Shown here: piece after piece, positions 1,035 to 64,000 of the stretch
Position numbering within the stretch: the stretch's first letter is position 1
Layout: every line of letters starts with the position of its first letter
From: Eledone cirrhosa
Lineage: Eukaryota
Direction: 5' to 3'
Assembly (NCBI GenBank): GCA_964016885.1
Contig: OZ024760.1
Span: 17,422,001 to 17,486,000 of the forward strand
DNA length: 64,000 bases
The notes under the pieces: generated by a model
Databases searched by the model: none
What the model saw: only the letters and a program-made list of their open reading frames with translations
Told to the model about the DNA's origin: nothing
Position numbers and translations under genes: made by a program

Positions 1035-3875
1035 TCACTTGACCAGTCCAGCCTTTTTAGCTTCTGTTTCATATATAAGGAGCCTCCACATTTTTACGAC
1101 AAACACCTCAGCTTCATCGTCCAGTACCATCGCGACATCGTTGAGAATGTTGGCAGGAGTGCTACGACCCACCACCTTCTGACATATAAACTCTGTTAGA
1201 GTCGGTTCTTCTTCTCCGATGTACTCAACAATCTTCTTATTAACCCACGGCTTGATACGTTTGTCCATGAGGACCTGGTCAACAATAGCCCAGTCGAGTG
1301 AGTAGGTGAATAGTTCTTCCTTGCCGGTCGGTATCTGTTCGATGAGTTGTTTGATCTGTTGCCGTTTTTCTTCTATGGAGGTGACCACCTTTTTTTCAGA
1401 CTTCTCCTCCTCGTAATCCAGCGGCACAAGTTTACGTTTACCTGCCGCCGACTCGCTGGAGTAGTCGTCCTGGTTGAAAACATCACCAATCGTGATCTTC
1501 TTCCGTTTGGGATTAGACAGGTCGCTAGGGCTGTCGGATGTGCGTAGCTTCATGGCATTGAAACCAATCTTGGTGGTCACCTCTTCTTTTACGGCTGGAC
1601 TGAAAACTGGTTGAGTGTTCAGATTCCTGCTAGGGACTGTGTTGGTGTTGTTAATGCTGCAGCTGTTGTTGCTGTTGTTGTTGCTGTTGTTGTTGTTGTT
1701 ATTATTACCAGTGTCTGTGTCAGCATCATCTCCGTCACTGCCACTGTCTCTGTCATCACATCTTCCATCCACACCAACTTTTGAGATCTTTCCCTTCCTG
1801 TCAGTCTGTGATAAACTATTTGAATGAGAATTATTTACTTTTGAGGTAACAACTTTCAAAGTGGCCTGCATGCGGGGCAACGTGGACTTAGATTCTTCAG
1901 ATTTCTGTTCCCGTTTATGTGGGGAGCCGCGTCGCAATTTCGGTTCTGGTAATGGGGGCAGTAAGTGTAGACGAGGCTTTAAATGTTCATCTCTTTCTCG
2001 TTCCATTTTGGCAATCTCTGCATCAGGGTCAGCATGTCCTTCTTCCAATAACCTTCTCCTAATTTCCTCCAATTCTTCTTTTTCTCGTTGTCGGTCTCTT
2101 GCGTCAATTTCTTTCTCCTTCTCTCGTTCTTTCAAACGTCTGGACAATGCACTGCCTCTGTAAAACTTGGGGTCATCCCTCAAGTCATCATAATCTTCAA
2201 GGAACTCTTTCAACCGTCGCGCTTCTTTATTTTCCTCACATTTCCGGCCTTCTTCTCGATCCTTCTCTTTTTCATATTCTTTGCTCTTCTTTCGTTCCCT
2301 TGCCTCCCAGTTCCGTAATCTCTCCTGGTAAGCAGCCTCCTTTTCACGCAGTTTCTTTTCTAGTTTTCTCCTCTCGTAAGCTTCCTCTTCGTCCTCGAGA
2401 TCCCAGTCTCTTCCTCGTTTGTCTCCATCCTTTGACCTCTCATGTGATCTGTCACGCGATCGCTCGCGAGAGCTGTCTCTCGACCGGTCCCTGCGTGATC
2501 TTGAGCGTGACCTTGATCGGGAGCAAGACCGCGACGGACTCCTCGACCAGCTGCGCTCCCTGTGTTCTCGTTCGTAAACTTTCCCTTTGCGCATCTTGTC
2601 CCTTCGCATGCGTTCATCATGAGCACGCCTGTCGCGTTCTCGATGCCTGGACTTTTCATTGCTTTCATCTTCCTTATGCAGATCTCGGAAACTCTTTATC
2701 TCACGGTTAATAATTTCCTTCTTTTCCTCTTCTAGTTCCATATCATCCAAACCTTTATCAGCTTGTACTTTCTCCTCTTTGCTCTTCTTCTGCGCTTGTT
2801 TTGCCTCCTTTTCTTGGTCAACGGGTGGTTCTTTTGCAAGTTCCTCAGCATATTCTCGCATGATGGCTTCCAGACCAGCTTTTGTAACACAATCCTCTCG
2901 CATAGTAATTTGATCCAAGTCATTAACCTTCTCGGTTTCCTTGCTTATCGCTTTCTCTTTATTTTGTGTTGTTGTTGCTGCTGTTGCTTTCTCTGTTTCC
3001 GTTGGAGCTTCCTCCACTTTATTCTTTGTATCTTCACCAGCACACTCTTTGCTTGTGTCACCACCATTTTTATCTTTTGTTTCTGTTGTACCTTTTAAAC
3101 TTATATTTTTTGAGGATGTCTCAGTGGAAGCTGTCTCTTTCGTAACAGTTTCCTTTGTAGCTGTCTCCTTTGAAGTTGTTTCATTTGAGGTTGTATTCTT
3201 TGAAGCTGTATTTTTCTGTTTCTGCTGTTGCAGCCATTTTGTGAGCTCGACTTTCTTCTTAGTTTTGTAGTCATCGAGCAATGCTTTAGTTTTCGCATCG
3301 ACTTTGACGACGAGTTTTTTATCGTTGATCTGCCACTCATTTAACAGACGGATACAGCGTAATGTAGATTCAGGTTCCTCATACTCACAGAAGCCGAAAC
3401 CCTGTAGCTTACCCGAGGCACCCTGGACTCTCTTCCAACTGAGTATGGTCCCACATCGTTGTAACATTTCCCTGATCATTGTATCAGGCGATCGCTCGCT
3501 TATGTTTCCCACAAAGACCGTTGTCACAGGAGGTTTCTCTTCTTTCTTAAGCAAGTCTGTTGTTTTGGGAATCTCCTGGGGAATCAGTTTCTTGTGATTC
3601 TGTTGAAGATGTTTATGGCAGGAATTATACATGGAAGTGGTGGCAGAGGTGATGGAGAGATGATGGTTGGACGAAGACGACACTGAGGGGACAGCTGTGG
3701 CGAGGGCAGCTACAGCCGTTGTACTGGACGTGATGATGGGTCTCATGACAGAGGCTGGCGGGATCATACTGACCCCCATGGGGACCATCCCCATAGGAGC
3801 GAATGTATAACCCTGAGCCATCATTCCTGGAGCCATATGAGGCAGTCCTAGGGGTGGACCAGGTGGAAACGACAT
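1035..3875 (-). CDS. RBM25: RNA-binding protein 25 (RBM25/Snu71-like splicing factor), single uninterrupted 946-aa ORF
   Basis: N-terminal MSFPP Pro-rich start; RRM with TVFVGNI and KLQGFGFCEY; RE/RD-rich middle (EFLEDYDDLRDDPKFYRGSAL); C-terminal PWI domain (IKPWVNKKIVEYIGEEEPTL...VFVVKMWRLLIYETEAKKAGLVK). Confidence 0.96.
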   Translation of the reverse strand: MSFPPGPPLGLPHMAPGMMAQGYTFAPMGMVPMGVSMIPPASVMRPIITSSTTAVAALATAVPSVSSSSNHHLSITSATTSMYNSCHKHLQQNHKKLIPQEIPKTTDLLKKEEKPPVTTVFVGNISERSPDTMIREMLQRCGTILSWKRVQGASGKLQGFGFCEYEEPESTLRCIRLLNEWQINDKKLVVKVDAKTKALLDDYKTKKKVELTKWLQQQKQKNTASKNTTSNETTSKETATKETVTKETASTETSSKNISLKGTTETKDKNGGDTSKECAGEDTKNKVEEAPTETEKATAATTTQNKEKAISKETEKVNDLDQITMREDCVTKAGLEAIMREYAEELAKEPPVDQEKEAKQAQKKSKEEKVQADKGLDDMELEEEKKEIINREIKSFRDLHKEDESNEKSRHRERDRRAHDERMRRDKMRKGKVYEREHRERSWSRSPSRSCSRSRSRSRSRRDRSRDSSRERSRDRSHERSKDGDKRGRDWDLEDEEEAYERRKLEKKLREKEAAYQERLRNWEARERKKSKEYEKEKDREEGRKCEENKEARRLKEFLEDYDDLRDDPKFYRGSALSRRLKEREKEKEIDARDRQREKEELEEIRRRLLEEGHADPDAEIAKMERERDEHLKPRLHLLPPLPEPKLRRGSPHKREQKSEESKSTLPRMQATLKVVTSKVNNSHSNSLSQTDRKGKISKVGVDGRCDDRDSGSDGDDADTDTGNNNNNNNSNNNSNNSCSINNTNTVPSRNLNTQPVFSPAVKEEVTTKIGFNAMKLRTSDSPSDLSNPKRKKITIGDVFNQDDYSSESAAGKRKLVPLDYEEEKSEKKVVTSIEEKRQQIKQLIEQIPTGKEELFTYSLDWAIVDQVLMDKRIKPWVNKKIVEYIGEEEPTLTEFICQKVVGRSTPANILNDVAMVLDDEAEVFVVKMWRLLIYETEAKKAGLVK

Positions 3876-4061
3876 GTTAGTTAGTTATATATAGTTATAT
3901 ACATACATATATATATTTGTGTGTGTGTGAAGGGGGATGGGTTTATTAAATTATGAAGAGTGGAGGGCCAGGGTTTGTGAGGAAAGGGAGAGAATGAACA
4001 TCAGAGAGAGCGATAGAGAGGTTTTACCTCACTATGTTTCAACAAAATAACGGAAGAAAGC

Positions 4062-9179: not shown

Positions 9180-9860
9180 TGACATAGAGTTACGGCCCTT
9201 TACGTTCTCATTTTAAATCCTGACGTGGTTAACTTTGCCTTTCATGTTTACCGTGTCGATATAAGAATTGTTTCTTCTTTAGGAACAAGGCCAGCAATTA
9301 CCCCAGTGCATTACTGGTACTTTATTTTATCGACCCCGTAAGGATGAGAGGTAAAGTTAACCTCGGCGGGATTTGAACTCAGAACGTGAAGGGCCATAAC
9401 TCTATGCTGCAAAGCATAGCGTCTGATGCTCTGTATCAGTAACGCACTAGGGTCGATTTATCGACTTTCCCCGCCCCCAAAATTGCTGGCCTTGTGCCTA
9501 TATAGGGTCGGACGCCATGCTTTCCAGCATAGTTACGTCCCTTTATGATCTGAGTTCAAATCCCGCCGAGGTTAACTTTGCCTTTCATCCTTACGGGATC
9601 GATAAAATAAAGTACCAGTAATGCACTGGTTAATTGCTGGCCTTGTGCCTATAGTAGAAACAATTATTAAAGCCGGTGGATTGGCAGTATCGGTAGAGCG
9701 TCAGACACCATGCTTTGCAGTATAGAGTTATGGCCCTTTGCGTTCTAAGTTCAAATCCCGCCGAGGTTAACTTTGCCTTTCATCCTTACGGGATCGATAA
9801 AATAAAGTACCAGTCACGCACTGGGGTAATTGCTGGCCTTGTGCCTATAGTAGAAACACT
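9180..9860. mobile_element. Cluster of 4-5 tRNA-derived SINE copies/fragments in both orientations
   Basis: Repeated body GAGTTCAAATCCCGCCGAGGTTAACTTTGCCTTTCATCCTTACGGGATCGATAAAATAAAGTACCAG. A-box-like TGGCAGTATCGG near 9682 and B-box GTTCAAATCC. One copy (about 9265-9430) is on the minus strand. Confidence 0.85.
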
Positions 9861-10459
9861 TATTACGGTCATTTGTGTTGGACAAAACCACATTTGTCAA
9901 ATGTCAAATGTTCCCATTGCTTCATAAGCCAACCGCTTTGTTTGTGTTATATAGTATTTCTACCACGTGATCGGCCGGAACTATAAGCAACACAATCTGT
10001 CTATAATTAATATATGTGTGTATGTGTCTATAATTAAAATTAATCATATTTCCGGAAATAATTATGTATTTCTCATATTTGGAGGAAAAAAGATAGAGTG
10101 GTAGTGGTGGTGGTGGAGGTGGTAGGATGGTGGTGATGGTGGAGGTGGTAGGGTGGTGGTGGTGGTGGTAGTGGTGATGGAAGCGGTAGGGTGGTAGTGT
10201 TGTTTCGGTTAATACATACATACATACATACATACATACATACATACATACATACATACATACATACATAAAACTTTGTGAAATTATAAAACCAGCAGAA
10301 CATACATACATACATACATACATGCGACATGTTGGCTGTCATTTTTCAAGGGAAACAACTATGATCGTTTATTTTACATAACCTCATATTTCAGGGGAAG
10401 TAATTTACGGGAGGCAACTAGCTTGGCTAAGGTAGACGTAATCATTTCGGGTGACCTGT

Positions 10460-20922: not shown

Positions 20923-21847
20923 GCTCACAAACACGCATACTTACAAGAATATACATACACACTGACAAATTCACACACATATACACACACACATAGAAAC
21001 TCATAAATATACACATACATATATATACCCACATACATATATACACACATACATATATACACACATACATATGCACGCATAAAGAACCGAGTTAGTTTGT
21101 TGTTGTTGTTGGGTGGTGCTGTCGGTTTTGCCAACAACTTATGTGTTATTATTTTAGTTTTCACAACAGAGACGAGAGGAGTTGTGACGGTGTCTGGTCT
21201 CTGGTCATACCAGATCTCACCCAACGGACGGACATGGTTGGACACGGATGGAGCGACGAATTGACACGGACTAGCTGCTACTAATAAACCCATGGATACA
21301 AGTTCGAATCCGGCAGTGTCAATATATTTTTGTTAATCTTACAACTGTAAGTAAATATTTTAGTGATAGAAGCCAAACGGGTGAAGAAGGTATTATACAT
21401 ATCTTACCAACGGTTGGACGGACACGGGTGGACACGGATGAAACGACAAATGGACAGGGATTAGCTGCTATTGATAACTCATCGATACGAGTTCGAACCC
21501 AGCTGTTCAATCGGTAGTTTTCAATGTTGTTTTATTAATCTTATATTTATGATATTCAACAACGATTAAAGTCGTGTGTGAAGTGTAGAAAATGGTTTCA
21601 CATAACAAAACATTACACATAGTACTGCTGCTATTACAACAAACCAACCAGTAATTAACTGTGGTTAGAGGTTTGTTTCTGATTTGTCAACCTATATTCT
21701 GAGAACTGTTACCACCACAACCATTAACCATCTACTTACTACATCTTATTAATATTGTATGTCCGTAAGTATTCATATATTTTCATTGCGTGTTTTCGTG
21801 ACTGCGCAGCGAGGCAACTAACTGTTGCGTGCGACTTAGACACAAAA

Positions 21848-22355
21848 TAATTGTTTCTACTTTTGGTACAAGCCTAGCAATTACCCCAGTGTATTACTGG
21901 TGCTTTATTTTATCGACCCTGTAACGATGAAAGCCAAAACTAACCTCTGCGGGATTAGAACTCTAACCGTAAAATTCAATGATGATTATGGGTATACAAA
22001 ATAATTGTTTCTACTTTAGGCACAAGGTCAGCAATAACCACCAGTGTATTACTGGTACTTTATTTTATCAACCCTGTAAGGATGAAAGTCAAAGTTAACC
22101 GCGGCGGGATTTGAACTCAGACCGTAAAGTTCAACGATGATTAAGGGTATACTTGATAATGGATATATAATTGTTTCTACTATTGGCACAAGGCCAGCAA
22201 ATAACCCAGTACATTACTGGTACTTTATTTTATCGACCCCGTAAGGATGAAAGTCAAAGTTAACCTCGGCGGGATTTGAACTCAGATCGTAAAGGGCCGT
22301 AACTCTTTGCTTGCATAGCATGGCGTCCGACCCTCTACCGATACTGCCAATCCAA
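21848..22355 (-). mobile_element. Three tandem SINE copies
   Basis: ATAATTGTTTCTACT...GGCACAAGG...TTTATCGACCCCGTAAGGATGAAAG...GGGATTTGAACTC starts near 21849, 22001 and 22167. Confidence 0.85.
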
Positions 22356-22827
22356 ATGATGTTATATGTTGTTTCTTAAATTATATTCTTTATCTATACC
22401 AGTGTTCTACTCGGGATTGATATGACCCCCCCCTCCCCTTCACCCCCTCGCCCCACATGCCTATACCTGGCTCCACTCCCTATACAACATGTGTTGTAAT
22501 TCTGGTAGAATCGATAGATGACAAGCAAGTGGTATATATGTTTATTATAGTTGTCTTTTGACAGGACAATGGTGGAATTCCTAACAATAAGTGGTTTTAG
22601 AGGCGAGAAATTTTAGATTCGATTTCGAATCTTCGCCAGGTAAAACATGGTAGGACTCTGTTAGAGATCGATGGGTTTAAAATGTTTTTTGTTAAAATGT
22701 TTCCAGCAATATTTGTTGCGACTCTTTACGCACTGAGTTCAAATCGTGCCGAGGTCAACTTTGCTTTTCATCCTTCCGAGGGTGGTGGGGTCGGGGGGGG
22801 GGGGGGGGGGTCTATAAAATATATAAT

Positions 22828-23014
22828 TGTTTCTACTTCAGGCACAAGGCCAGCAATTATCTCAGTGCATTACTGGTACTTTATTTTATCGACCCCGTAA
22901 GGATGAAAGGCAAAGTCAACCTCGGCGGGATTTGAACTCAGATCGTAAAGGGACGTAACTCTATGGTGGAAAGCATGGCGTCCGACCCTCTACCGATACT
23001 GCCAATCCACCGCC
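22828..23014 (-). mobile_element. Full-length SINE with 16-bp TSD, nested in an older plus-strand SINE (about 22715-23135)
   Basis: CTATAAAATATATAAT at 22812-22827 and 23015-23030; host SINE B-box upstream and tail downstream. Confidence 0.85.
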
Positions 23015-24053
23015 CTATAAAATATATAATACCAGTCAAATACTGGGGTTTATTTGATCGATTTTTCTCTTCCCCGCTCTCCATACACCCCCCCCCCCCC
23101 AAAAAAAAAAATTCTGGCCTTGTGCCTAAATTAGAAACTACTACTACAACCACTATTACCATGACAACCACCACACCGCCACCATCAGCGACATCACCAC
23201 AACTGCCACCACAACCACAACCATCACCACCAGCATCACAACCACTGCCACCACCACAACCACTAACACCACCACCATATATGTATATGCATGTATATGT
23301 ATGTATATATATATGTATGTATATGTATGTATATGCATGTATGTATATGTATGTATGTGTATGTATATGTATGTATGTATATGTATGTATATGTATGTAT
23401 GTATATGTATGTATATGTATATGTATGTATATGTATGTATATGTATATGTATGTATATGTATGTATATGTATGTATGTATATGTATGTATGTATATGTAT
23501 GTATATGTATGTATATGTATATGTGTGTATATGTATATGTATATATATGTATGTATGTGTGTGTATGTTTATGTATGTATATGTATGTATATGTATATGT
23601 ATGTATATGTATGTATATGTATGTATATGTATGTATATGTATATGTATGTATATGTATGTATATGTATGTATATGTATGTATGTATGTGTATGTATATGT
23701 ATGTATATGTATATATATGTATATGTGTGTATATGTATATGTATGTATATGTATGTATGTATATGTATGTATATGTATGTATGTATATGTATGTATGTAT
23801 ATGTATGTATATGTATGTATGTATATGTATGTATATGTATGTATATGTATGTATATGTATGTATATGTATGTATGTATGTGTATGTATATGTATGTATAT
23901 GTATGTATGTATATGTATATATATGTGTGTATATGTATATGTATATATATGTATATGTATATGTGTGTATGTGTGTGTTATCAATTCAATAAATCCGAAG
24001 AGTTATAAACTTCACTTCTCTTGTCACTGACACACCTACAGTAGCGCTTGTGT

Positions 24054-26295: not shown

Positions 26296-26505
26296 AACAA
26301 AGGAATTGTGGTAAGGAACCAGATGGACCATAACGCACCAGAGTACTCAATACTTAGAGTAGTAGAGTGGGAAATAGGAAAAAGTATGACCCCGACGGCA
26401 GAGCTCAAGCCGTTTCGACGGCTATTTCTGGACTAAAATTCTGAATTTTAGTCCAGAAATAGCCGTTGAAACGGCTTGAGCTCTGCCGTCGGGGTTATAC
26501 TTTTT

Positions 26506-26509
<4 letters not shown>
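26296..26509. mobile_element. Fold-back non-autonomous element in (TA)n (family A, putative Penelope pLTR remnant)
   Basis: About 80-bp tail (AACAAAGGAATTGTGGTAAGGAACCAGATGGACCATAACGCA...) plus inverted arms of about 65 bp centred near 26441. Homologues at 28039, 29168, 39296 and 46293. Confidence 0.75.
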
Positions 26510-26560
<51 letters not shown>

Positions 26561-28038: not shown

Positions 28039-28040
<2 letters not shown>

Positions 28041-28180
28041 CAAAGGAATTGTGGTAAGGAACCAGATGGACCATAACGCATCAGAGTACTCAATACTTAG
28101 GGTAGTAGAGTGGGAAATAGGAAAAAGTATGACCCCGACGGCAGAGCTCAAGCCGTTTCGACGGGGTCATACTTTTTCCT
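28039..28180. mobile_element. Family A fold-back element, short inverted arm
   Basis: Near-identical to 26296-26420, then GACGGGGTCATACTTTTTCCTA inverted; flanked by (TA)n on both sides. Confidence 0.75.
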
Positions 28181-28317
28181 ATATATATATATATATATAT
28201 ATAACATTAAGAAAGATGCTGATGTTATTGTTATACTGAATCTTCATTGTAACTACAAACTACGAATGTAGAGAGCTTTCTCCTGCTTGCTCCTGTTATT
28301 CACCAAAACAACTTTTA

Positions 28318-29167: not shown

Positions 29168-29170
<3 letters not shown>

Positions 29171-29284
29171 AAAATAGTCAGGACCCCGACGGCTGAGATC
29201 CGGCCGTTTCCCACTCTACTACCCTAAGTATTGAGTACTCTGGTGCGTTATGGTCCACCTGGTATCTTACCACACTTTCTTTGT

Positions 29285-30548: not shown

Positions 30549-30858
<310 letters not shown>

Positions 30859-30966
30859 ATATATATATGTACTATATCACACCACACCACACCACACTAC
30901 AAATATAACACTACCCTACGCCATAAATTATAATAAACAACAACAACAACAACATCAACACGAAAA

Positions 30967-32121
30967 ATGATGAAACGTTTCATGCAGTTTTTGTTTCGTC
31001 AGAGAAGAGTTTCTCTCAGTTTTGTGAACTATGCTGGGATGTGTTACACTATTGTACTCTCGGCTGTGGCTGTATTAGTCACTACTCTCATCTATATCCC
31101 TTATTTATACTCCCATCACACCATCACATTCAGAGCACTCACACTATGGACGTGGTTTATTTTCGGCAACCTAGCCGCCAATTACGTGCTGATGTTATTG
31201 TCGTCCCAGAAATCTGTTTACCGGGGTATTAAACTCACAAACCCCATTACGAAGTCATTATCCTCATATTCATCGTTGTCAGTGTCACAACCGACGCCAT
31301 CTTCTCTGTCATCGTCAACGCCATTGAACCGTGGTGAAGGAATTCAGGCGGCGAAAAATGGTTGTTCAAGCGCCGCTTACCACCATTCGAGCAGTGCAAC
31401 GTCACTCTCGTGGCCGGCTTCATCATCTAGCTCGATGTACGTTTCGGCATTTGGTTCGACCGGATCGTCTTTCTCGTCAACGGGGCTTCTACTTCATCCC
31501 CCGCCACCATCACAAACACAACCAGCAGCAGCTCAAACATCACCCAACTGGAAGTTCTGTTCACTGTGCGACCACTACGCACCCCCGCGTTCACGTCACT
31601 GTCCCTTTTGTCAACGGTGTATACTACGACACGACCACCACTGCCTGTTCACCGGATGTTGTATAGGACTGTACAACCAGCGTTACTTCATTGTATTCTG
31701 TGTATACGGTTGGATAGGGTCGTTCAAGGCCGCCTCTCTCACCCTCCTTTACTTGAGCTACATCCGTGGTTCATCTCTTTATACGTATTTACCGCCCAAC
31801 GCTTTTTTCAACCTTATTTTCGGTGATCTCGATCTTGGCGTGTTTTGCATTGCTCTTCTTCTCTATCTGCTCTTCACCACACACCTAGCTTGTACATACT
31901 TCATGTGTTGGCAACTGATGTTGTTGGCCAGGAAACAGACAGCCAACGAGTACGTGAAAGGGGTGGCTCCGTTACAGAAATCATTTCGTCACCATGTGAA
32001 ATCAGTTTTTGGTCCTTACTGGTTACTAAACTTCATCATTCCAATGTTCTGGACAAATCCTTCGGCCGCATGTCCGGGTTCCAGCTTGTTATTAGATGCC
32101 CCGTCTACAAAACGGATTTAA
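30967..32121 (+). CDS. DHHC palmitoyltransferase, ZDHHC22/ZDHHC24-like, 384 aa, CDS without introns
   Basis: Two N-terminal TM segments; Cys-rich domain CSLCDHYAPPRSRHCPFCQRCILRHDHHCLFTGCCIGLYNQRYF; two more TM segments; TTxE-like TANE; VFGPYWL C-terminal motif. Confidence 0.93.
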   Translation: MMKRFMQFLFRQRRVSLSFVNYAGMCYTIVLSAVAVLVTTLIYIPYLYSHHTITFRALTLWTWFIFGNLAANYVLMLLSSQKSVYRGIKLTNPITKSLSSYSSLSVSQPTPSSLSSSTPLNRGEGIQAAKNGCSSAAYHHSSSATSLSWPASSSSSMYVSAFGSTGSSFSSTGLLLHPPPPSQTQPAAAQTSPNWKFCSLCDHYAPPRSRHCPFCQRCILRHDHHCLFTGCCIGLYNQRYFIVFCVYGWIGSFKAASLTLLYLSYIRGSSLYTYLPPNAFFNLIFGDLDLGVFCIALLLYLLFTTHLACTYFMCWQLMLLARKQTANEYVKGVAPLQKSFRHHVKSVFGPYWLLNFIIPMFWTNPSAACPGSSLLLDAPSTKRI

Positions 32122-36062: not shown

Positions 36063-36165
<103 letters not shown>

Positions 36166-36227
36166 TACACATATATATATATACATATATATATATACAC
36201 ACAAATATATATATATATAAATGTATA

Positions 36228-36383
<156 letters not shown>

Positions 36384-36403
36384 CATACATATATATATAT
36401 AAT

Positions 36404-36485
<82 letters not shown>

Positions 36486-36488
<3 letters not shown>

Positions 36489-36907
36489 AAATATTAAAAA
36501 AATAATGAATAAAACAATGAAACAGTTCCTTATATTAAACAAAAAAAGTTCATTATTTAACGATCGTTTCTAGGATATATATGTGTTAGAATTGGCATGC
36601 ATATTCAACAGATCTATGTACAAAATTATACAAAATTATACAAACTATCAAAATTAAATATACATACCAACACATATATAAGCCGTCTTCAGAAATAATA
36701 ATAAGACGGCTTATATATGTGTTGGTATGTATATTTAATTTTGATAGTTTGTATAATTTTGTATAATTTTATACATAGATCTGTTGAATATGCATGCCAA
36801 TTCTAACACATATATATCCTAGAAACGATCGTTAAATAATGAACTTTTTTTGTTTAAATATAAGGAACTGTTTCATTGTTTTATTCATTATTTTTTTTAT
36901 ATTTTAT
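36486..36907. repeat. Large near-perfect palindrome, arms about 204 bp, 13-nt loop
   Basis: Arms 36486-36689 and 36703-36907 are reverse complements with only a few differences. It is flanked by long (TA)n tracts and a unique tail runs to about 37040. Confidence 0.92.
36550..36701 (-). ncRNA. Complete type I hammerhead motif with about 115-nt rod-like stem II
   Basis: Minus strand: TTATTATTT-CTGAAGA-CGGCT-TATATATGTGTTGG...CTAACACATATATA-TCCTA-GAAA-CGATCG-TT-AAATAATGA. Stem I is 9 bp, stem III is palindromic, triplet GUU. Confidence 0.7.
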
Positions 36908-37038
36908 CTTGACTCTGTATTCCGTTTATCTTTCACCGAAAGTGATTTTTCATTGCATCTCTTCTTTCCATGATATCCGGATTACATTGAGTTCTTCATA
37001 CGGATTGGACACTACCGTAAACTCTTGGTAGATTTATC

Positions 37039-37149
<111 letters not shown>

Positions 37150-37216
37150 ATACATATATATATATATGTATGTATATACATATATATATATATGTATATA
37201 TATATACATACACATA

Positions 37217-37803
<587 letters not shown>

Positions 37804-46048: not shown

Positions 46049-46170
46049 CATATATATGTATATATATGTGTGTATGTATATGTATATATATATATATATA
46101 TATACAAGTTTATCCCGGGTTCAATCGGGGCTAACCGCAGTAAGGTACTCAATATAAAGCAGAGTATAAA

Positions 46171-46283
46171 TATTTAATATGGAAAGGCTTCTACAGGACT
46201 AGAACTGTTTCATTTGGGAGAAAGCATTGATTTCTCCCGAATGAAACAGTTCTAGTCCTGTAGAAGCCTTTCTATATTAAATA
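46171..46283. repeat. About 53-bp-arm palindrome with GAAAC box near the apex
   Basis: ...CTAGAACTGTTTCATTTGGGAGAAA-gcattga-TTTCTCCCGAATGAAACAGTTCTAG... Confidence 0.85.
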
Positions 46284-46292
46284 TATATATAT

Positions 46293-46434
46293 AACAAAGA
46301 AAGTGTGAAAAGAAATCAGGTGGACCATAACGCATCAGAGTACTCAATACTTAGGGTAATAGAGTGGGTGATAGGAAAAGAGTCAGGATCCCAACGGCCG
46401 GAGCTCAGCCGCCGGGGTCCTGACGCTTTTCCTA
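46293..46434. mobile_element. Family A fold-back element
   Basis: Same tail as 26296; the inverted arm ends TTTTCCTA. Confidence 0.72.
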
Positions 46435-46470
46435 CATATATATATATATGTGTGTGTGTGGTGTGTATAT

Positions 46471-46654
46471 ATAATTGTTTCTACTTTTGGCACAAGGCCA
46501 GCAATTATCCCAGTGTATTACTGGAACTTTATTTTATCGACCCCGTAAGGATGAAAGGCAAAGTTAACCTCGGCGGGATTTGAGCTCACACCGTAAAGGG
46601 CCGTAACTCTTTGCTGCAAAGCATCGCGTGCGACCCTCTACCGATACTGCCAAT
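46471..46654 (-). mobile_element. SINE, near full length
   Basis: Family body plus ACCCTCTACCGATACTGCCAAT (reverse of the A-box region). Confidence 0.85.
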
Positions 46655-46669
46655 GAAGTAGAGTTTTAA

Positions 46670-46795
46670 TATTCATTTTATTAAGGCTAAATAGTGAGTA
46701 TTTTTACCCTGGATTTTTCGCCTGTTTATCTCTGGGATAAACAGGCGAAACTCCAGAGTAACAAGACTCACTATTTAGCCTTAATAAAATGAGTA
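46670..46795. repeat. About 60-bp-arm palindrome containing a hammerhead 3' half
   Basis: Apex GCCTGTTTATC-tctgg-GATAAACAGGC is directly followed by GAAA-CTC-ca-GAG-TA. Confidence 0.8.
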
Positions 46796-46879
46796 TATAT
46801 ATATATATATATAAATGAAGTATTTCCGTAGGAAAGGTAAAGGAAAAGAGAGTGTTCTATGTAGGCTACAGAGCTTTTT

Positions 46880-46996
46880 AGTTGTGTAATAAACAACATA
46901 AATTTTCTTCTGATGAATGAAGACAGACATAAATATCTGTCTTCAAGAAACCACTGGTAAATGAAATAATTATCTGATGTTGTTTATTACATAACT
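46880..46996 (+). ncRNA. Type I hammerhead motif with long distal stem I
   Basis: TTTCTT-CTGATGA-A-TGAAGACAGA-cataaata-TCTGTCTTCA-A-GAAA-CCA-c-TGG-TA-AATGAAA; outer pairing GTTGTGTAATAAACAACAT / ATGTTGTTTATTACATAAC. Confidence 0.7.
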
Positions 46997-54970: not shown

Positions 54971-55347
54971 ATAATTGTTTCTACTTTTGGCACAAGGCCA
55001 GCAATTACCCAGTATATTACTGGTACTTTATTTTATTGACCCCGTAAGGATGACAGGCAAAGTTAACCTCGGCGGGATTTGAACTCAGAATGGGAAAGGC
55101 CGTAACTCTATGCGTCAAAGCATGGCGTCCGACCTTCTACCGATACTGCCAATCCACCCTAGGTTTCTGATTTAGAGGCCATCAATTTTAGGGTGGAGAA
55201 GGAAGTCGATTAAATTGACCCCAGTGCATTACTGGTACTTTATTTTATCGATCTCTGTAAAGATGAAAGGCAAAGCTAACCTTGGCGTACCGTAACTAAT
55301 GCCACAAACCATGTTGCCCGACACTCTACTGATTCTCCTGCCAATCC
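54971..55347 (-). mobile_element. Two tandem SINEs (one intact, one degenerate)
   Basis: Family body twice, each ending in CTGCCAATCCA. Confidence 0.8.
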
Positions 55348-56950: not shown

Positions 56951-57363
56951 CCCCTTAGCATTTAAACCGGCTGTATCCGGTCAGAATTCTTTCCCCTTTT
57001 TTCAAACTGGCTGTAACTAACAGCTCACATTGATGTTAAGATATTGTTCTTACAATAAATAATTGTTTCTACTTTTGGCACAAGGCCAGCAATTACCCAG
57101 TGCATTACCAGTACTTTATTTTATCGACCCCGTAAGGATGAAAGGCAAAGTTAACCTCGGCGGGATTTGAACTCAGAATGGCAAGGGCCGTAACTCTATG
57201 CGTCAAAGCATGGCGTCCGACCCTCTACCGATACTGCCAATCCACGGTTCCATTCTTAAAATAAATAATAACATCAAAATCTTGTAGACTTGAGATTATG
57301 TGACATAAAGCCTTTACCATGAATATACAATAATAAATATAGAGTGATGTAAATGCTAAAGGG
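56951..57363. mobile_element. piggyBac-type MITE interrupted by a SINE (about 57064-57252)
   Basis: TTAA|CCCCTTAGCATTTA ... TAAATGCTAAAGGG|TTAA; the SINE is flanked by TTCTTA(C/A)AATAAATAAT at 57047-57063 and 57253-57269. Confidence 0.8.
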
Positions 57364-61045: not shown

Positions 61046-62623
61046 CACTGGTCTATCCAGAGAACACTGGTCTATCCAGTGAACACTGGTCTATCCAGAG
61101 AACACTGGTCTATCTAGTGAACACTGGTCTATCTAGTGAACACTGGTCTATCTAGTGAACACTGGTCTATCTAGTGAACACTGGTCTATCCAGAGAACAC
61201 TGGTCTATCTAGTGAACACTAGTCTATCCAGTAAACACTGACCTATCTAGTGAACACTGGTCTATCTAGTGAACACTAGTCTATCCAGAGAACACTGGTC
61301 TATCTAGTGAACACTAGTCTATCCAGAGAACACTGGTCTATCTAGTGAACACTGGTCTATCTAGTGAACACTAGTCTATCCAGTAAACACTGGTCTATCC
61401 AGAGAACACTGACCTATCCAGTAAACACTGGTCTATCTAGTGAACACTGGTCTATCCAGTAAACACTAGTCTATCCAGAGAACACTGGTCTATCCAGAGA
61501 ACACTGGTCTATCTAGTGAACACTGGTCTATCTAGTGAACACTGGTCTATCTAGTGAACACTAGTCTATCCAGTAAACACTGGTCTATCCAGAGAACACT
61601 GACCTATCCAGTAAACACTGGTCTATCTAGTGAACACTGGTCTATCCAGTAAACACTAGTCTATCCAGAGAACACTGGTCTATCTAGTGAACACTGGTCT
61701 ATCCAGTAAACACTGGTCTATCTAGTGAACACTGGTCTATCTAGTGAACACTAGTCTATCCAGTAAACACTGACCTATCTAGTGAACACTGACCTATCTA
61801 GTGAACACTGGTCTATCCAGTAAACACTGGTCTATCCAGAGAACACTGGTCTATCCAGAGAACACTGGTCTATCCAGAGAACACTGGTCTATCCAGAGAA
61901 CACTGACCTATCTAGTGAACACTGGTCTATCCAGTAAACACTGGTCTATCTAGAGAACACTGGTCTATCTAGTGAACACTGGTCTATCTAGTGAACACTG
62001 GTCTATCTAGTGAACACTAGTCTATCCAGTAAACACTGGTCTATCCAGTAAACACTGACCTATCCAGTAAACACTGGTCTATCTAGTGAACACTGGTCTA
62101 TCCAGAGAACACTGACCTATCCAGTAAACACTGACCTACTAGTGAACACTGGTCTATCCAGAGAACACTGACCTATCCAGTAAACACTGGTCTATCTAGT
62201 GAACACTAGTCTATCCAGAGAACACTGACCTATCCAGAGAACACTGACCTATCCAGTAAACACTGGTCTATCTAGTGAACACTAGTCTATCCAGAGAACA
62301 CTGACCTATCCAGTAAACACTGACCTATCCAGAGAACACTGACCTATCCAGTAAACACTGGTCTATCTAGTGAACACTAGTCTATCCAGTAAACACTGGT
62401 CTATCTAGTGAACACTAGTCTATCCAATAAACACTAGTCTATCTAGTGAACACTGGTCTATCCAGTGAACACTGGTCTATCCAGTGAACACTGGTCTATC
62501 CAGTGAACACTGGTCTATCCAGTGAACACTGGTCTATCTAGTGAACACTGGTCTATCTAGTGAACACTAGTCTATCTAGTGAACACTAGTCTATCTAGTG
62601 AACACTAGTCTATCTAGTGAACA
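61046..62623. repeat. 19-bp intronic minisatellite, about 83 copies
   Basis: Unit CACT(G/A)GTCTATC(C/T)AG(T/A)GAA; no spacers. Confidence 0.95.
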
Positions 62624-62825: not shown

Positions 62826-64000
62826 TGAGAAAGACATATCTAACTTACCAAGGCAAAGAGATCACACTGTAGGGCCCTTCCCCTGCCCCCATGAGAAAGA
62901 CATATCTAACTTACCAAAGCAAAGAGATCACTCTGTAGGGCCCTTCCCCTGCCCCCATGAGAAAGACATATCTAACTTACCAAAGCAAAGAGATCACTCT
63001 GTAGGGCCCTTCCCCTGCCCCCATGAGAAAGACATATCTAACTTACCAAAGCAAAGAGATCGCTCTGTAGGGCCCTTCCCCTGCCCCCATGAGAAAGACA
63101 TATCTAACTTACCAAAGCAAAGAGATCACTCTGTAGGGCCCTTCCCCTGCCCCCATGAGAAAGACATATCTAACTTACCAAGGCAAAGAGATCACTCTGT
63201 AGGGCCCTTCCCCTGCCCCCATGAGAAAGACATATCTAACTTACCAAAGCAAAGAGATCGCTCTGTAGGGCCCTTCCCCTGCCCCCATGAGAAAGACATA
63301 TCTAACTTACCAAAGCAAAGAGATCACTCTGTAGGGCCCTTCCCCTGCCCCCATGAGAAAGACATATCTAACTTACCAAAGCAAAGAGATCACTCTGTAG
63401 GGCCCTTCCCCTGCCCCCATGAGAAAGACATATCTAACTTACCAAGGCAAAGAGATCACTCTGTAGGGCCCTTCCCCTGCCCCCATGAGAAAGACATATC
63501 TAACTTACCAAAGCAAAGAGATCACTCTGTAGGGCCCTTCCCCTGCCCCCATGAGAAAGACATATCTAACTTACCAAAGCAAAGAGATCACTCTGTAGGG
63601 CCCTTCCCCTGCCCCCATGAGAAAGACATATCTAACTTACCAAGGCAAAGAGATCACTCTGTAGGGCCCTTCCCCTGCCCCCATGAGAAAGACATATCTA
63701 ACTTACCAAAGCAAAGAGATCACTCTGTAGGGCCCTTCCCCTGCCCCCATGAGAAAGACATATCTAACTTACCAAAGCAAAGAGATCACTCTGTAGGGCC
63801 CTCCCCCTGCCCCCATGAGAAAGACATATCTAACTTACCAAAGCAAAGAGATCACTCTGTAGGGCCCTTCCCCTGCCCCCATGAGAAAGACATATCTAAC
63901 TTACCAAAGCAAAGAGATCACTCTGTAGGGCCCTTCCTTGTCCCCATGAGAAAGACATATCTAACTTACCAAGGCAAAGAGATCACTCTGTAGGGCCCTT
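62826..64000 (-). repeat. 66-bp tandem array derived from an NPEPPS exon 3' end plus 5' splice site; 18 visible copies, continues past the window
   Basis: Minus-strand unit TGGGGGCAGGGGAAGGGCC-CTA CAG AGT GAT CTC TTT GCT TTG|GTAAGTTAGATATGTCTTTCTCA. Confidence 0.92.

What the first reader, a model, noticed from the sequence alone, without database searches (positions are those of the whole stretch)
36486..36907. Complete hammerhead with about 115-nt stem II hidden in a 420-bp palindrome
Seen on the minus strand: 9-bp stem I (TTATTATTT/AAATAATGA), CTGAAGA (36692-36686), a stem II with a 14-bp helix (TATATATGTGTTGG/CTAACACATATATA) and further rod-like pairing, GAAA (36570-36567), palindromic stem III (ACGATCGT) and a GUU triplet. 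The opposite arm is the same sequence truncated inside the core (only AAGA remains). Known: Penelope-like elements carry minimal type I hammerheads with short palindromic stem III, normally with a small stem II hairpin. Inference: a stem II this long would be missed by standard descriptors and may mark an overlooked hammerhead subclass. The base of stem II is mismatched (C.A), so activity is uncertain.
Basis: partly seen in the sequence, partly recalled or inferred. Interest (0 to 1): 0.75.

Follow-up and report, generated by a model that had tools for sequence, protein, structure and literature searches.

The report
Long-armed hammerhead in Penelope-type insertion
The palindrome is likely the ordinary head-to-head footprint of a Penelope-type jumping element, and the element's family carries a hammerhead self-cutting-RNA motif with an arm about four times longer than a published search pattern allows; cutting is untested and predicted to be blocked in this copy.

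Summary
All hammerhead core nucleotides, a 9-bp stem I, a palindromic stem III and a 115-nt stem II region (42 predicted pairs) lie at the stated places, in a 422-bp palindrome between (TA)n tracts of an octopod genome. The palindrome is ordinary: two 5'-truncated copies of one repeat end joined head to head, one 133 nt longer. Both ends recur in public runs, which is the published Penelope 'tail' footprint. The long stem II is a family trait: contigs from three organism labels carry it, including a second subfamily with GUA at the cut site. Rfam and the published minimal descriptor (26 nt at most) miss it. The C·A at the base has published precedent, but the basal helix is weak, covariation is not shown, and no reverse transcriptase or RNA was found. 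This copy is predicted to be dead: the inverted arm and a downstream hairpin both sequester stem I. The scan noted long stem II hammerheads before, in other repeat families of this genome. Verdict: a new variant of a known kind, of modest interest.

The parts
36486..36699 (-). Arm A: 5'-truncated copy of the repeat end with the complete hammerhead core; its 3' end abuts (TA)n
36693..36701 (-). Stem I 5' strand (36701-36700 come from the junction; three contigs of run X4 give a perfect 10-bp stem I)
   Evidence: table 7
36686..36692 (-). Core CUGAAGA
36571..36685 (-). 115-nt stem II region: weak 2-bp base, 11-bp helix (36680-36670 with 36576-36586), 6-nt bulge, 17-bp helix (36669-36653 with 36593-36609), variable apex; 42 predicted pairs, 5 of them U·G
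36559..36570 (-). Core GAAA, palindromic stem III and GUU triplet; predicted cut 3' of 36559
   Evidence: GUA variant
36550..36558 (-). Stem I 3' strand
36500..36521 (-). Two downstream complements of the stem I 3' strand (36521-36512 and 36509-36500); a predicted hairpin here displaces stem I
36700..36702 (.). Three extra junction bases between the two head-to-head arms
   Evidence: comparison with X4 loose ends
36703..36907 (+). Arm B: inverted copy starting inside the core (no CUG, no stem I 5' strand)
36908..37040 (+). 133-nt tail present on arm B only; structured; its last ~60 nt appear shared with another repeat family; abuts (TA)n
36104..36485 (.). (TA)n-rich target tract, left
37041..37802 (.). 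(TA)n-rich target tract, right

Best explanation
The locus holds two 5'-truncated copies of one high-copy repeat end joined head to head in a (TA)n tract, likely written by a Penelope-like reverse transcriptase/endonuclease, and the family carries a type I hammerhead motif with a 115-nt rod as stem II that is predicted to cut slowly, as a dimer or with protein help, and only briefly during transcription. Shown: the layout, two recurrent 3' ends 133 nt apart, the intact core, and the long stem II in other copies. Inferred insertion: the enzyme cut (TA)n; each DNA end primed on the element RNA at one of two fixed internal sites; both cDNAs ran through the uncut ribozyme, stopped at its 5' edge 10 nt apart and were joined. 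Inferred ribozyme: the rod stacks on stem III and its apex is dispensable; the 2-bp palindromic stem III is stabilised by pairing of two molecules; stem I is available only until about 20 nt more are transcribed, after which a downstream hairpin captures it, so most RNA stays uncut and can be copied. This genomic copy is predicted to be inert, because read-through makes a 205-bp hairpin. My odds by step: Penelope-type footprint 0.9; true hammerhead homologue 0.9; measurable cleavage by the family consensus 0.55.
For: Layout matches the published inverted 5'-truncated copy plus optional tail in (TA)n, and tails correspond to two internal priming sites in the anole element. Both ends recur: 8 contigs of X1 run into (TA)n at the 36907-equivalent, and clusters of 15 and 9 contigs that diverge at 37016/37019 end in a similar terminal motif followed by TA or CA repeats; an X4 contig carries the tail behind the short end. 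An X6 contig has an independent head-to-head junction at the 36699-equivalent. 1,283, 33 and 18 contigs of X1, X4 and X6 lie on arm A, one 210-nt contig at about 87% identity spans 36485-36695, and no joint skipping stem II was listed. The rod folds on the ribozyme strand only (-39.2 against -17.4 kcal/mol). The two-copy minimum-energy fold forms stems I and II and an intermolecular stem III. Stem I probability is 0.55 for the isolated motif, 0.13 or less once 36530 is passed, and 0.0 with the inverted arm. C·A and U·U at the base of stem II occur in published Penelope hammerheads, and the descriptor allows extra N10/N11.
Against: No reverse transcriptase or endonuclease gene was found, and the upstream sequence is known only from 30-letter loose ends. 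The core showed no variant at 4% or more, but only 14 of 214 positions varied in the three contig runs, so about 0.7 were expected among 11 core positions; this is not evidence of selection. Of 13 substitutions within the ribozyme, 5 are unpaired, 3 keep a pair and 5 break one (four near the apex, all in X6, one at the helix junction); partner strands could not be phased, so no compensatory change is shown. The base of stem II has only 2 pairs in either register, and the preferred register leaves two extra bases before GAAA. The tail is 133 nt against the usual 30-40. G/U-rich strands fold better in general, which weakens the strand asymmetry. Both arms cross the predicted cut site, so their template was uncut or religated.
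Confidence: 0.55

Rival explanations
1. Same Penelope-type insertion, but the hammerhead is a dead relic: a fold-back or microsatellite-derived insert enlarged loop II and broke the junction, and the core looks conserved only because the family spread recently from a few masters.
For: Weak base of stem II in both registers; few variants anywhere; the basal helix is TA/TG-repeat-like; hammerhead mutants did not impair insertion of the anole element in vitro; both arms were copied through the cut site.
Against: Two subfamilies and an ~87% copy keep the core and the rod, and the cut-site change stays within NUH; mismatched bases at this position are common in published elements and in the second hammerhead of this window.
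Confidence: 0.3
2. The family is a non-coding retrozyme whose tandem units are cut by the hammerhead into RNA circles, which a Penelope enzyme copies in trans; this locus is a sub-monomer stub.
For: No coding link found; copies passing through the cut site fit a circular template; retrozymes are proposed Penelope derivatives; other notes describe such arrays in this genome (unchecked).
Against: No tandem unit here and no joint from tail to head listed; sequence search of the scan's notes found no look-alike array.
Confidence: 0.25
3. A DNA fold-back element (MITE-like) with long terminal inverted repeats inserted at TA; the hammerhead is incidental.
For: Long inverted repeat in a TA target.
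Against: Ends are asymmetric (133-nt tail on one arm), the centre differs between insertions (X6), the rod is strand-specific, and the motif is beyond chance.
Confidence: 0.04
4. The palindrome is a host hairpin-RNA gene selected to make small RNAs.
For: Read-through would form a 205-bp duplex; microRNA-precursor models match the hairpin centre, all below their gathering scores.
Against: Arms are near-identical copies of a high-copy repeat with private changes on each arm, as expected of a neutral insertion; a second repeat family makes the same layout four times in this window.
Confidence: 0.03

Closest known systems
Minimal and palindromic-stem III type I hammerheads of metazoan Penelope-like elements (Cervera and de la Pena 2014, PMC4209133; Lunse et al. 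2017, not held, known through PMC6765202)
   Same: Type I order, intact core, short palindromic stem III implying dimers, extra base after A9, position near the 3' end of the element.
   Different: 115 nt between the core halves against at most 26 in the descriptor; no G10.1-C11.1 pair next to the core; 9-10 bp stem I; downstream competitor of stem I.
Hammerheads listed for Hydra-clade and Chlamys/PLE-X elements (Craig et al. 2021, PMC8557442, File S2)
   Same: (TA)n targets (Hydra); mismatched base of stem II (U·U in many Hydra elements, C·A in PLE-X1_cBra); enlarged stem II regions of about 50 nt in the two Selaginella elements.
   Different: More than twice the longest region in that table; three motifs of this family were not found in the supplement, and Hydra-1_Obim has a different hammerhead.
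Inverted 5'-truncated pLTR plus tail insertions of EN+ Penelope-like elements (PMC3846280; PMC8557442; PMC11167929)
   Same: Head-to-head arms, one with an extension, AT-rich target, template copied through the hammerhead.
   Different: Tail 133 nt rather than 30-40; no ORF recovered.
Split hammerheads of mammalian lectin mRNAs (reviewed in PMC2920678)
   Same: Natural hammerhead tolerating a long insert between its parts.
   Different: There the insert separates enzyme and substrate strands and tertiary contacts are kept; here it is a rod in stem II of a mobile element.
Animal non-LTR retrozymes (PMC7229834; bioRxiv 10.64898/2026.07.22.740005)
   Same: Type I hammerhead in a possibly non-coding repeat; a U·U base of helix II is reported in axolotl.
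   Different: No tandem units at this locus; circular RNA not shown.

Membership tests
Type I hammerhead ribozyme | CUGANGA and GAAA core, A15.1-U16.1 pair, NUH triplet, in type I order | tested here: met
   GUU here, GUA in a second subfamily
Type I hammerhead ribozyme | Stem I flanking the cut site | tested here: met
   9 bp here, 10 bp in X4 contigs; predicted only for the isolated motif
Type I hammerhead ribozyme | Stem II helix adjoining the core (usually G10.1-C11.1) | tested here: inconclusive
   C·A then G·U, G-C in one register; two G-C pairs with 1+2 extra bases in the other, 0.9 kcal apart. Mismatch has precedent
Type I hammerhead ribozyme | Covariation supporting the helices | tested here: inconclusive
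   one-sided changes only, unphased
Type I hammerhead ribozyme | Site-specific self-cleavage | not testable with these tools
   needs in vitro transcription
Minimal Penelope hammerhead (2014 descriptor) | Stem II 3-7 bp, loop 3-10 nt, GAAANNUH with no loop III | tested here: not met
   115-nt stem II region and a 4-nt loop III
EN+ Penelope-like element | ORF with reverse transcriptase and GIY-YIG endonuclease | tested here: inconclusive
EN+ Penelope-like element | Inverted 5'-truncated copy, head to head | tested here: met
   independent junction in X6
EN+ Penelope-like element | Optional tail (two fixed 3' ends) | tested here: met
   longer than published
EN+ Penelope-like element | AT-rich or (TA)n target | tested here: met
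EN+ Penelope-like element | Target-site duplication | tested here: inconclusive
   cannot be read inside (TA)n
Non-LTR retrozyme | Two or more tandem units each with a hammerhead | tested here: not met
   one complete motif at this locus; other loci not testable, no genome held
Non-LTR retrozyme | Circular RNA | not testable with these tools
   no RNA holder listed
Non-circularly permuted (type-SGC) hammerhead | Permuted order of core blocks | tested here: not met
   order is C, G, S as in type I (blocks as defined)

The most novel reading that the evidence does not exclude
Octopod Penelope-type elements carry an overlooked, active group of hammerheads whose stem II has grown into a rod of over 100 nt. 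The rod is a double-stranded RNA domain under selection (a binding site for the element's protein or an A-to-I editing substrate whose edits are copied back into DNA), and a downstream copy of the stem I strand makes the ribozyme a co-transcriptional switch that leaves most RNA uncut for reverse transcription.
Probability: 0.2. Interest if true: 0.6.

Novelty: new variant of a known kind. Interest (0 to 1): 0.33.

Why it matters
If the family cleaves, ribozyme counts in animal genomes are biased by length limits in search patterns, and statements that an element 'lacks a hammerhead' need rechecking. It would also give a natural test of how long and how weakly closed stem II can be, and of how Penelope-type elements keep their RNA uncut while copying it. 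The palindrome itself adds nothing new.

Tried and rejected
No genome is held for this window, so no genome-wide copy count or alignment was possible. Pattern scans found no relative: metagenome contigs 0 and 2 matches without stems I or III, judged chance; viral contigs 0 and 0; prokaryote genomes 0 and 0. No RNA holder was listed; this says nothing on expression. Summed contig depth was not used as copy number, and its fall at 36700 only marks where this junction departs from the family. A coding reading of 36839-37039 (67 codons, one in-frame TGA that is family consensus) was rejected: the two arms differ by a 1-nt indel in it, there was no Pfam match, and the one protein hit was a 24%-identical tandem repeat. 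A 13-mer shared with another repeat in the window is about what chance gives (0.004 per 13-mer times some 350 13-mers). An antisense hammerhead was looked for by eye and lacks the CUGANGA and stem I partner. Rfam microRNA matches are generic hairpin matches below threshold. Literature: a search for long, extended or elongated stem or helix II gave 6 papers; in the one read for it, long means 6-8 bp. Hammerhead with Octopus and Penelope gave 5 papers, 4 listed. None showed a stem II of this size, but Lunse 2017 is not held, Repbase could not be searched and one supplement file of PMC4209133 was not searched.

Full report
Observation. The palindrome has arms 36486-36689 and 36703-36907 (2 mismatches and 1 gap in 205 columns) and a 13-nt spacer. 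It was the only hit of a relaxed scan over both strands; 1 of 60 block-shuffled windows gave a comparable stem I, and 0 of 40 passed a scan that also needs a closed stem II. The 115 nt fold as one rod of 42 pairs (-39.2 kcal/mol, 0 of 300 shuffles; opposite strand -17.4, 4 of 300).

Context. The window is microsatellite-rich animal DNA. Its DHHC palmitoyltransferase is 79% identical to a protein clustered with an Octopus bimaculoides sequence, so the host is likely an octopod. No genome is held. The element sits between two long (TA)n tracts, and the plus-strand arm continues 133 nt past the palindrome, to 37040.

The family. Of 24 listed runs, 20 hold the stretch or part of it, 4 with half its words or more; I laid 7 runs. 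On arm A lay 1,283 contigs of X1, 33 of X4 and 18 of X6 (three organism labels). One 210-nt contig at about 87% identity spans almost the whole arm, and no joint skipping stem II was listed. A second subfamily, seen in all three, has GUA at the cut site, U·G for one U-A in stem I, and a 6-nt deletion downstream. By my hand alignment of the 30-letter loose ends behind 36586 (8 contigs in X1, 1 in X6), it also has U-A where the window has U·G at 36596 and 36600, assuming the same 5' arm. Three X4 contigs continue upstream of 36699 with bases that make a perfect 10-bp stem I, so the window's first two stem I bases belong to the junction. One X6 contig has its own head-to-head junction at the 36699-equivalent. 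Both 3' ends recur: 8 X1 contigs pass into (TA)n at 36907, and clusters of 15 and 9 contigs diverging at 37016 and 37019 end in a similar terminal motif before TA or CA repeats. Seven contigs share 36978 onward but differ upstream, which suggests a second family using the same terminus.

What the variants do not show. Fourteen of 214 positions varied at 4% or more in the contig runs and none was in the 11 core positions, where about 0.7 would be expected; that is no test of selection. Of 13 substitutions inside the ribozyme, 5 are unpaired, 3 keep a pair and 5 break one, four of them near the apex in X6. Partners could not be phased, so covariation is not shown.

The palindrome. An inverted 5'-truncated copy next to the element end, an optional tail on one arm and (TA)n targets are described for EN+ Penelope-like elements (PMC8557442, passages; PMC3846280, passages). 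In the anole element the tail is the stretch between two internal reverse-transcription start sites, and uncut RNA is the main template (PMC11167929, parts 1-2 of 4). I infer the same route here: two DNA ends primed at sites 133 nt apart, both copies ran through the ribozyme and stopped at its 5' edge. An unrelated repeat family shows the same layout four times in this window. No RT or endonuclease gene was found, so I call this a Penelope-type footprint, not a classified element.

The ribozyme. Short palindromic stems III imply dimers and low activity (PMC4209133, parts 1-2 of 4; PMC6765202, passages). The two-copy minimum-energy fold gives stems I and II and an intermolecular stem III; for the monomer the hammerhead-like fold is 2.1 kcal/mol above the minimum. 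The base of stem II is the weak point: either C·A, G·U, G-C and a 2x2 loop, or two G-C pairs with one and two extra bases, 0.9 kcal/mol apart. The published descriptor allows an extra base on each side (supplement passages). File S2 of PMC8557442 lists C·A in PLE-X1_cBra and U·U in many Hydra elements (part 2 of 59), U·U is tolerated elsewhere (PMC3088659 and PMC7229834, passages), and a second hammerhead in this window has A·A there. So the mismatch does not exclude activity. Stem I is predicted at probability 0.55 in the isolated motif, 0.38 with 8 more bases and 0.13 or less from 36530 on, because two downstream complements capture its 3' strand; 9 bases of the inverted arm abolish it. This copy is therefore predicted to be inert, and in the family cleavage would be confined to a short window or need protein, as reported for the anole element.

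Comparison and novelty. The descriptor spans at most 26 nt between the core halves, the longest entries in File S2 about 50 nt, and 'long' viral helices II are 6-8 bp (PMC13725137, passages). Rfam misses the motif. Long inserts in natural hammerheads are known from the split mammalian ribozymes (PMC2920678, part 1 of 2). The order of parts is plain type I, not permuted (PMC10085705, passages). Retrozymes were considered (bioRxiv 10.64898/2026.07.22.740005, part 1 of 5), but there is no tandem unit here. My searches showed no stem II of this size; Lunse 2017 and Repbase could not be read. Earlier notes of this scan report long stem II hammerheads in other families of the same genome (unchecked, no sequence match to this one), so this is one more and longer case, not a lone discovery.

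Verdict. Real feature, ordinary insertion, unusual ribozyme variant of unproven activity. New variant of a known kind; interest 0.33.

Noticed in passing
window 46902-46967 (+): Second type I hammerhead motif: CUGAUGA at 46910, 30-nt stem II region with a 10-bp helix and A·A at its base, stem III like the Hydra-clade type, one mismatch in stem I; flanked by TA tracts; not found by Rfam at gathering score.
   Followed up: partly
window 26297-26510, 28040-28182, 29169-29284, 46294-46432: Four insertions of another repeat family in (TA)n, each with a fold-back end and a ~77-nt extension on one side: the same Penelope-type layout.
   Followed up: partly
window 46165-46289 and 30580-30850: A 125-bp palindrome that seems to turn at a hairpin just before a GAAAC/GU half-core, and three ~37-nt stubs of the same end between TA and TC repeats.
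   Followed up: partly
window 36571-36685 (-): All five U·G pairs of the rod have U on the 5' arm and G on the 3' arm, and another subfamily has A at two of them; this could be fixed A-to-I editing, but direction of change is unknown.
   Followed up: partly
window 36978-37040 (+): The last ~60 nt of the tail are shared with contigs that differ upstream and include a predicted terminal hairpin; a candidate recognition site for the reverse transcriptase.
   Followed up: partly
window 1035-3884 (-): Uninterrupted 949-codon frame with RRM and PWI domains (RBM25-like; name recalled), without introns: a retrocopy or an intronless gene.
   Followed up: partly
window 30937-32121 (+): Intronless DHHC palmitoyltransferase gene.
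   Followed up: yes
window 61046-62623 and 62826-64000: A 19-bp tandem array of 83 copies next to a 66-bp array of about 18 copies at 98% identity that keeps an open frame.
   Followed up: no
window 9262-9865, 21842-22354, 22815-23040, 46464-46654, 54971-55287, 57051-57278: A ~190-bp interspersed repeat in many copies at about 90% identity, probably a SINE; at 9262-9865 in inverted arrangement.
   Followed up: no
window 46669-46796: A further ~125-bp imperfect palindrome next to a TA tract.
   Followed up: no
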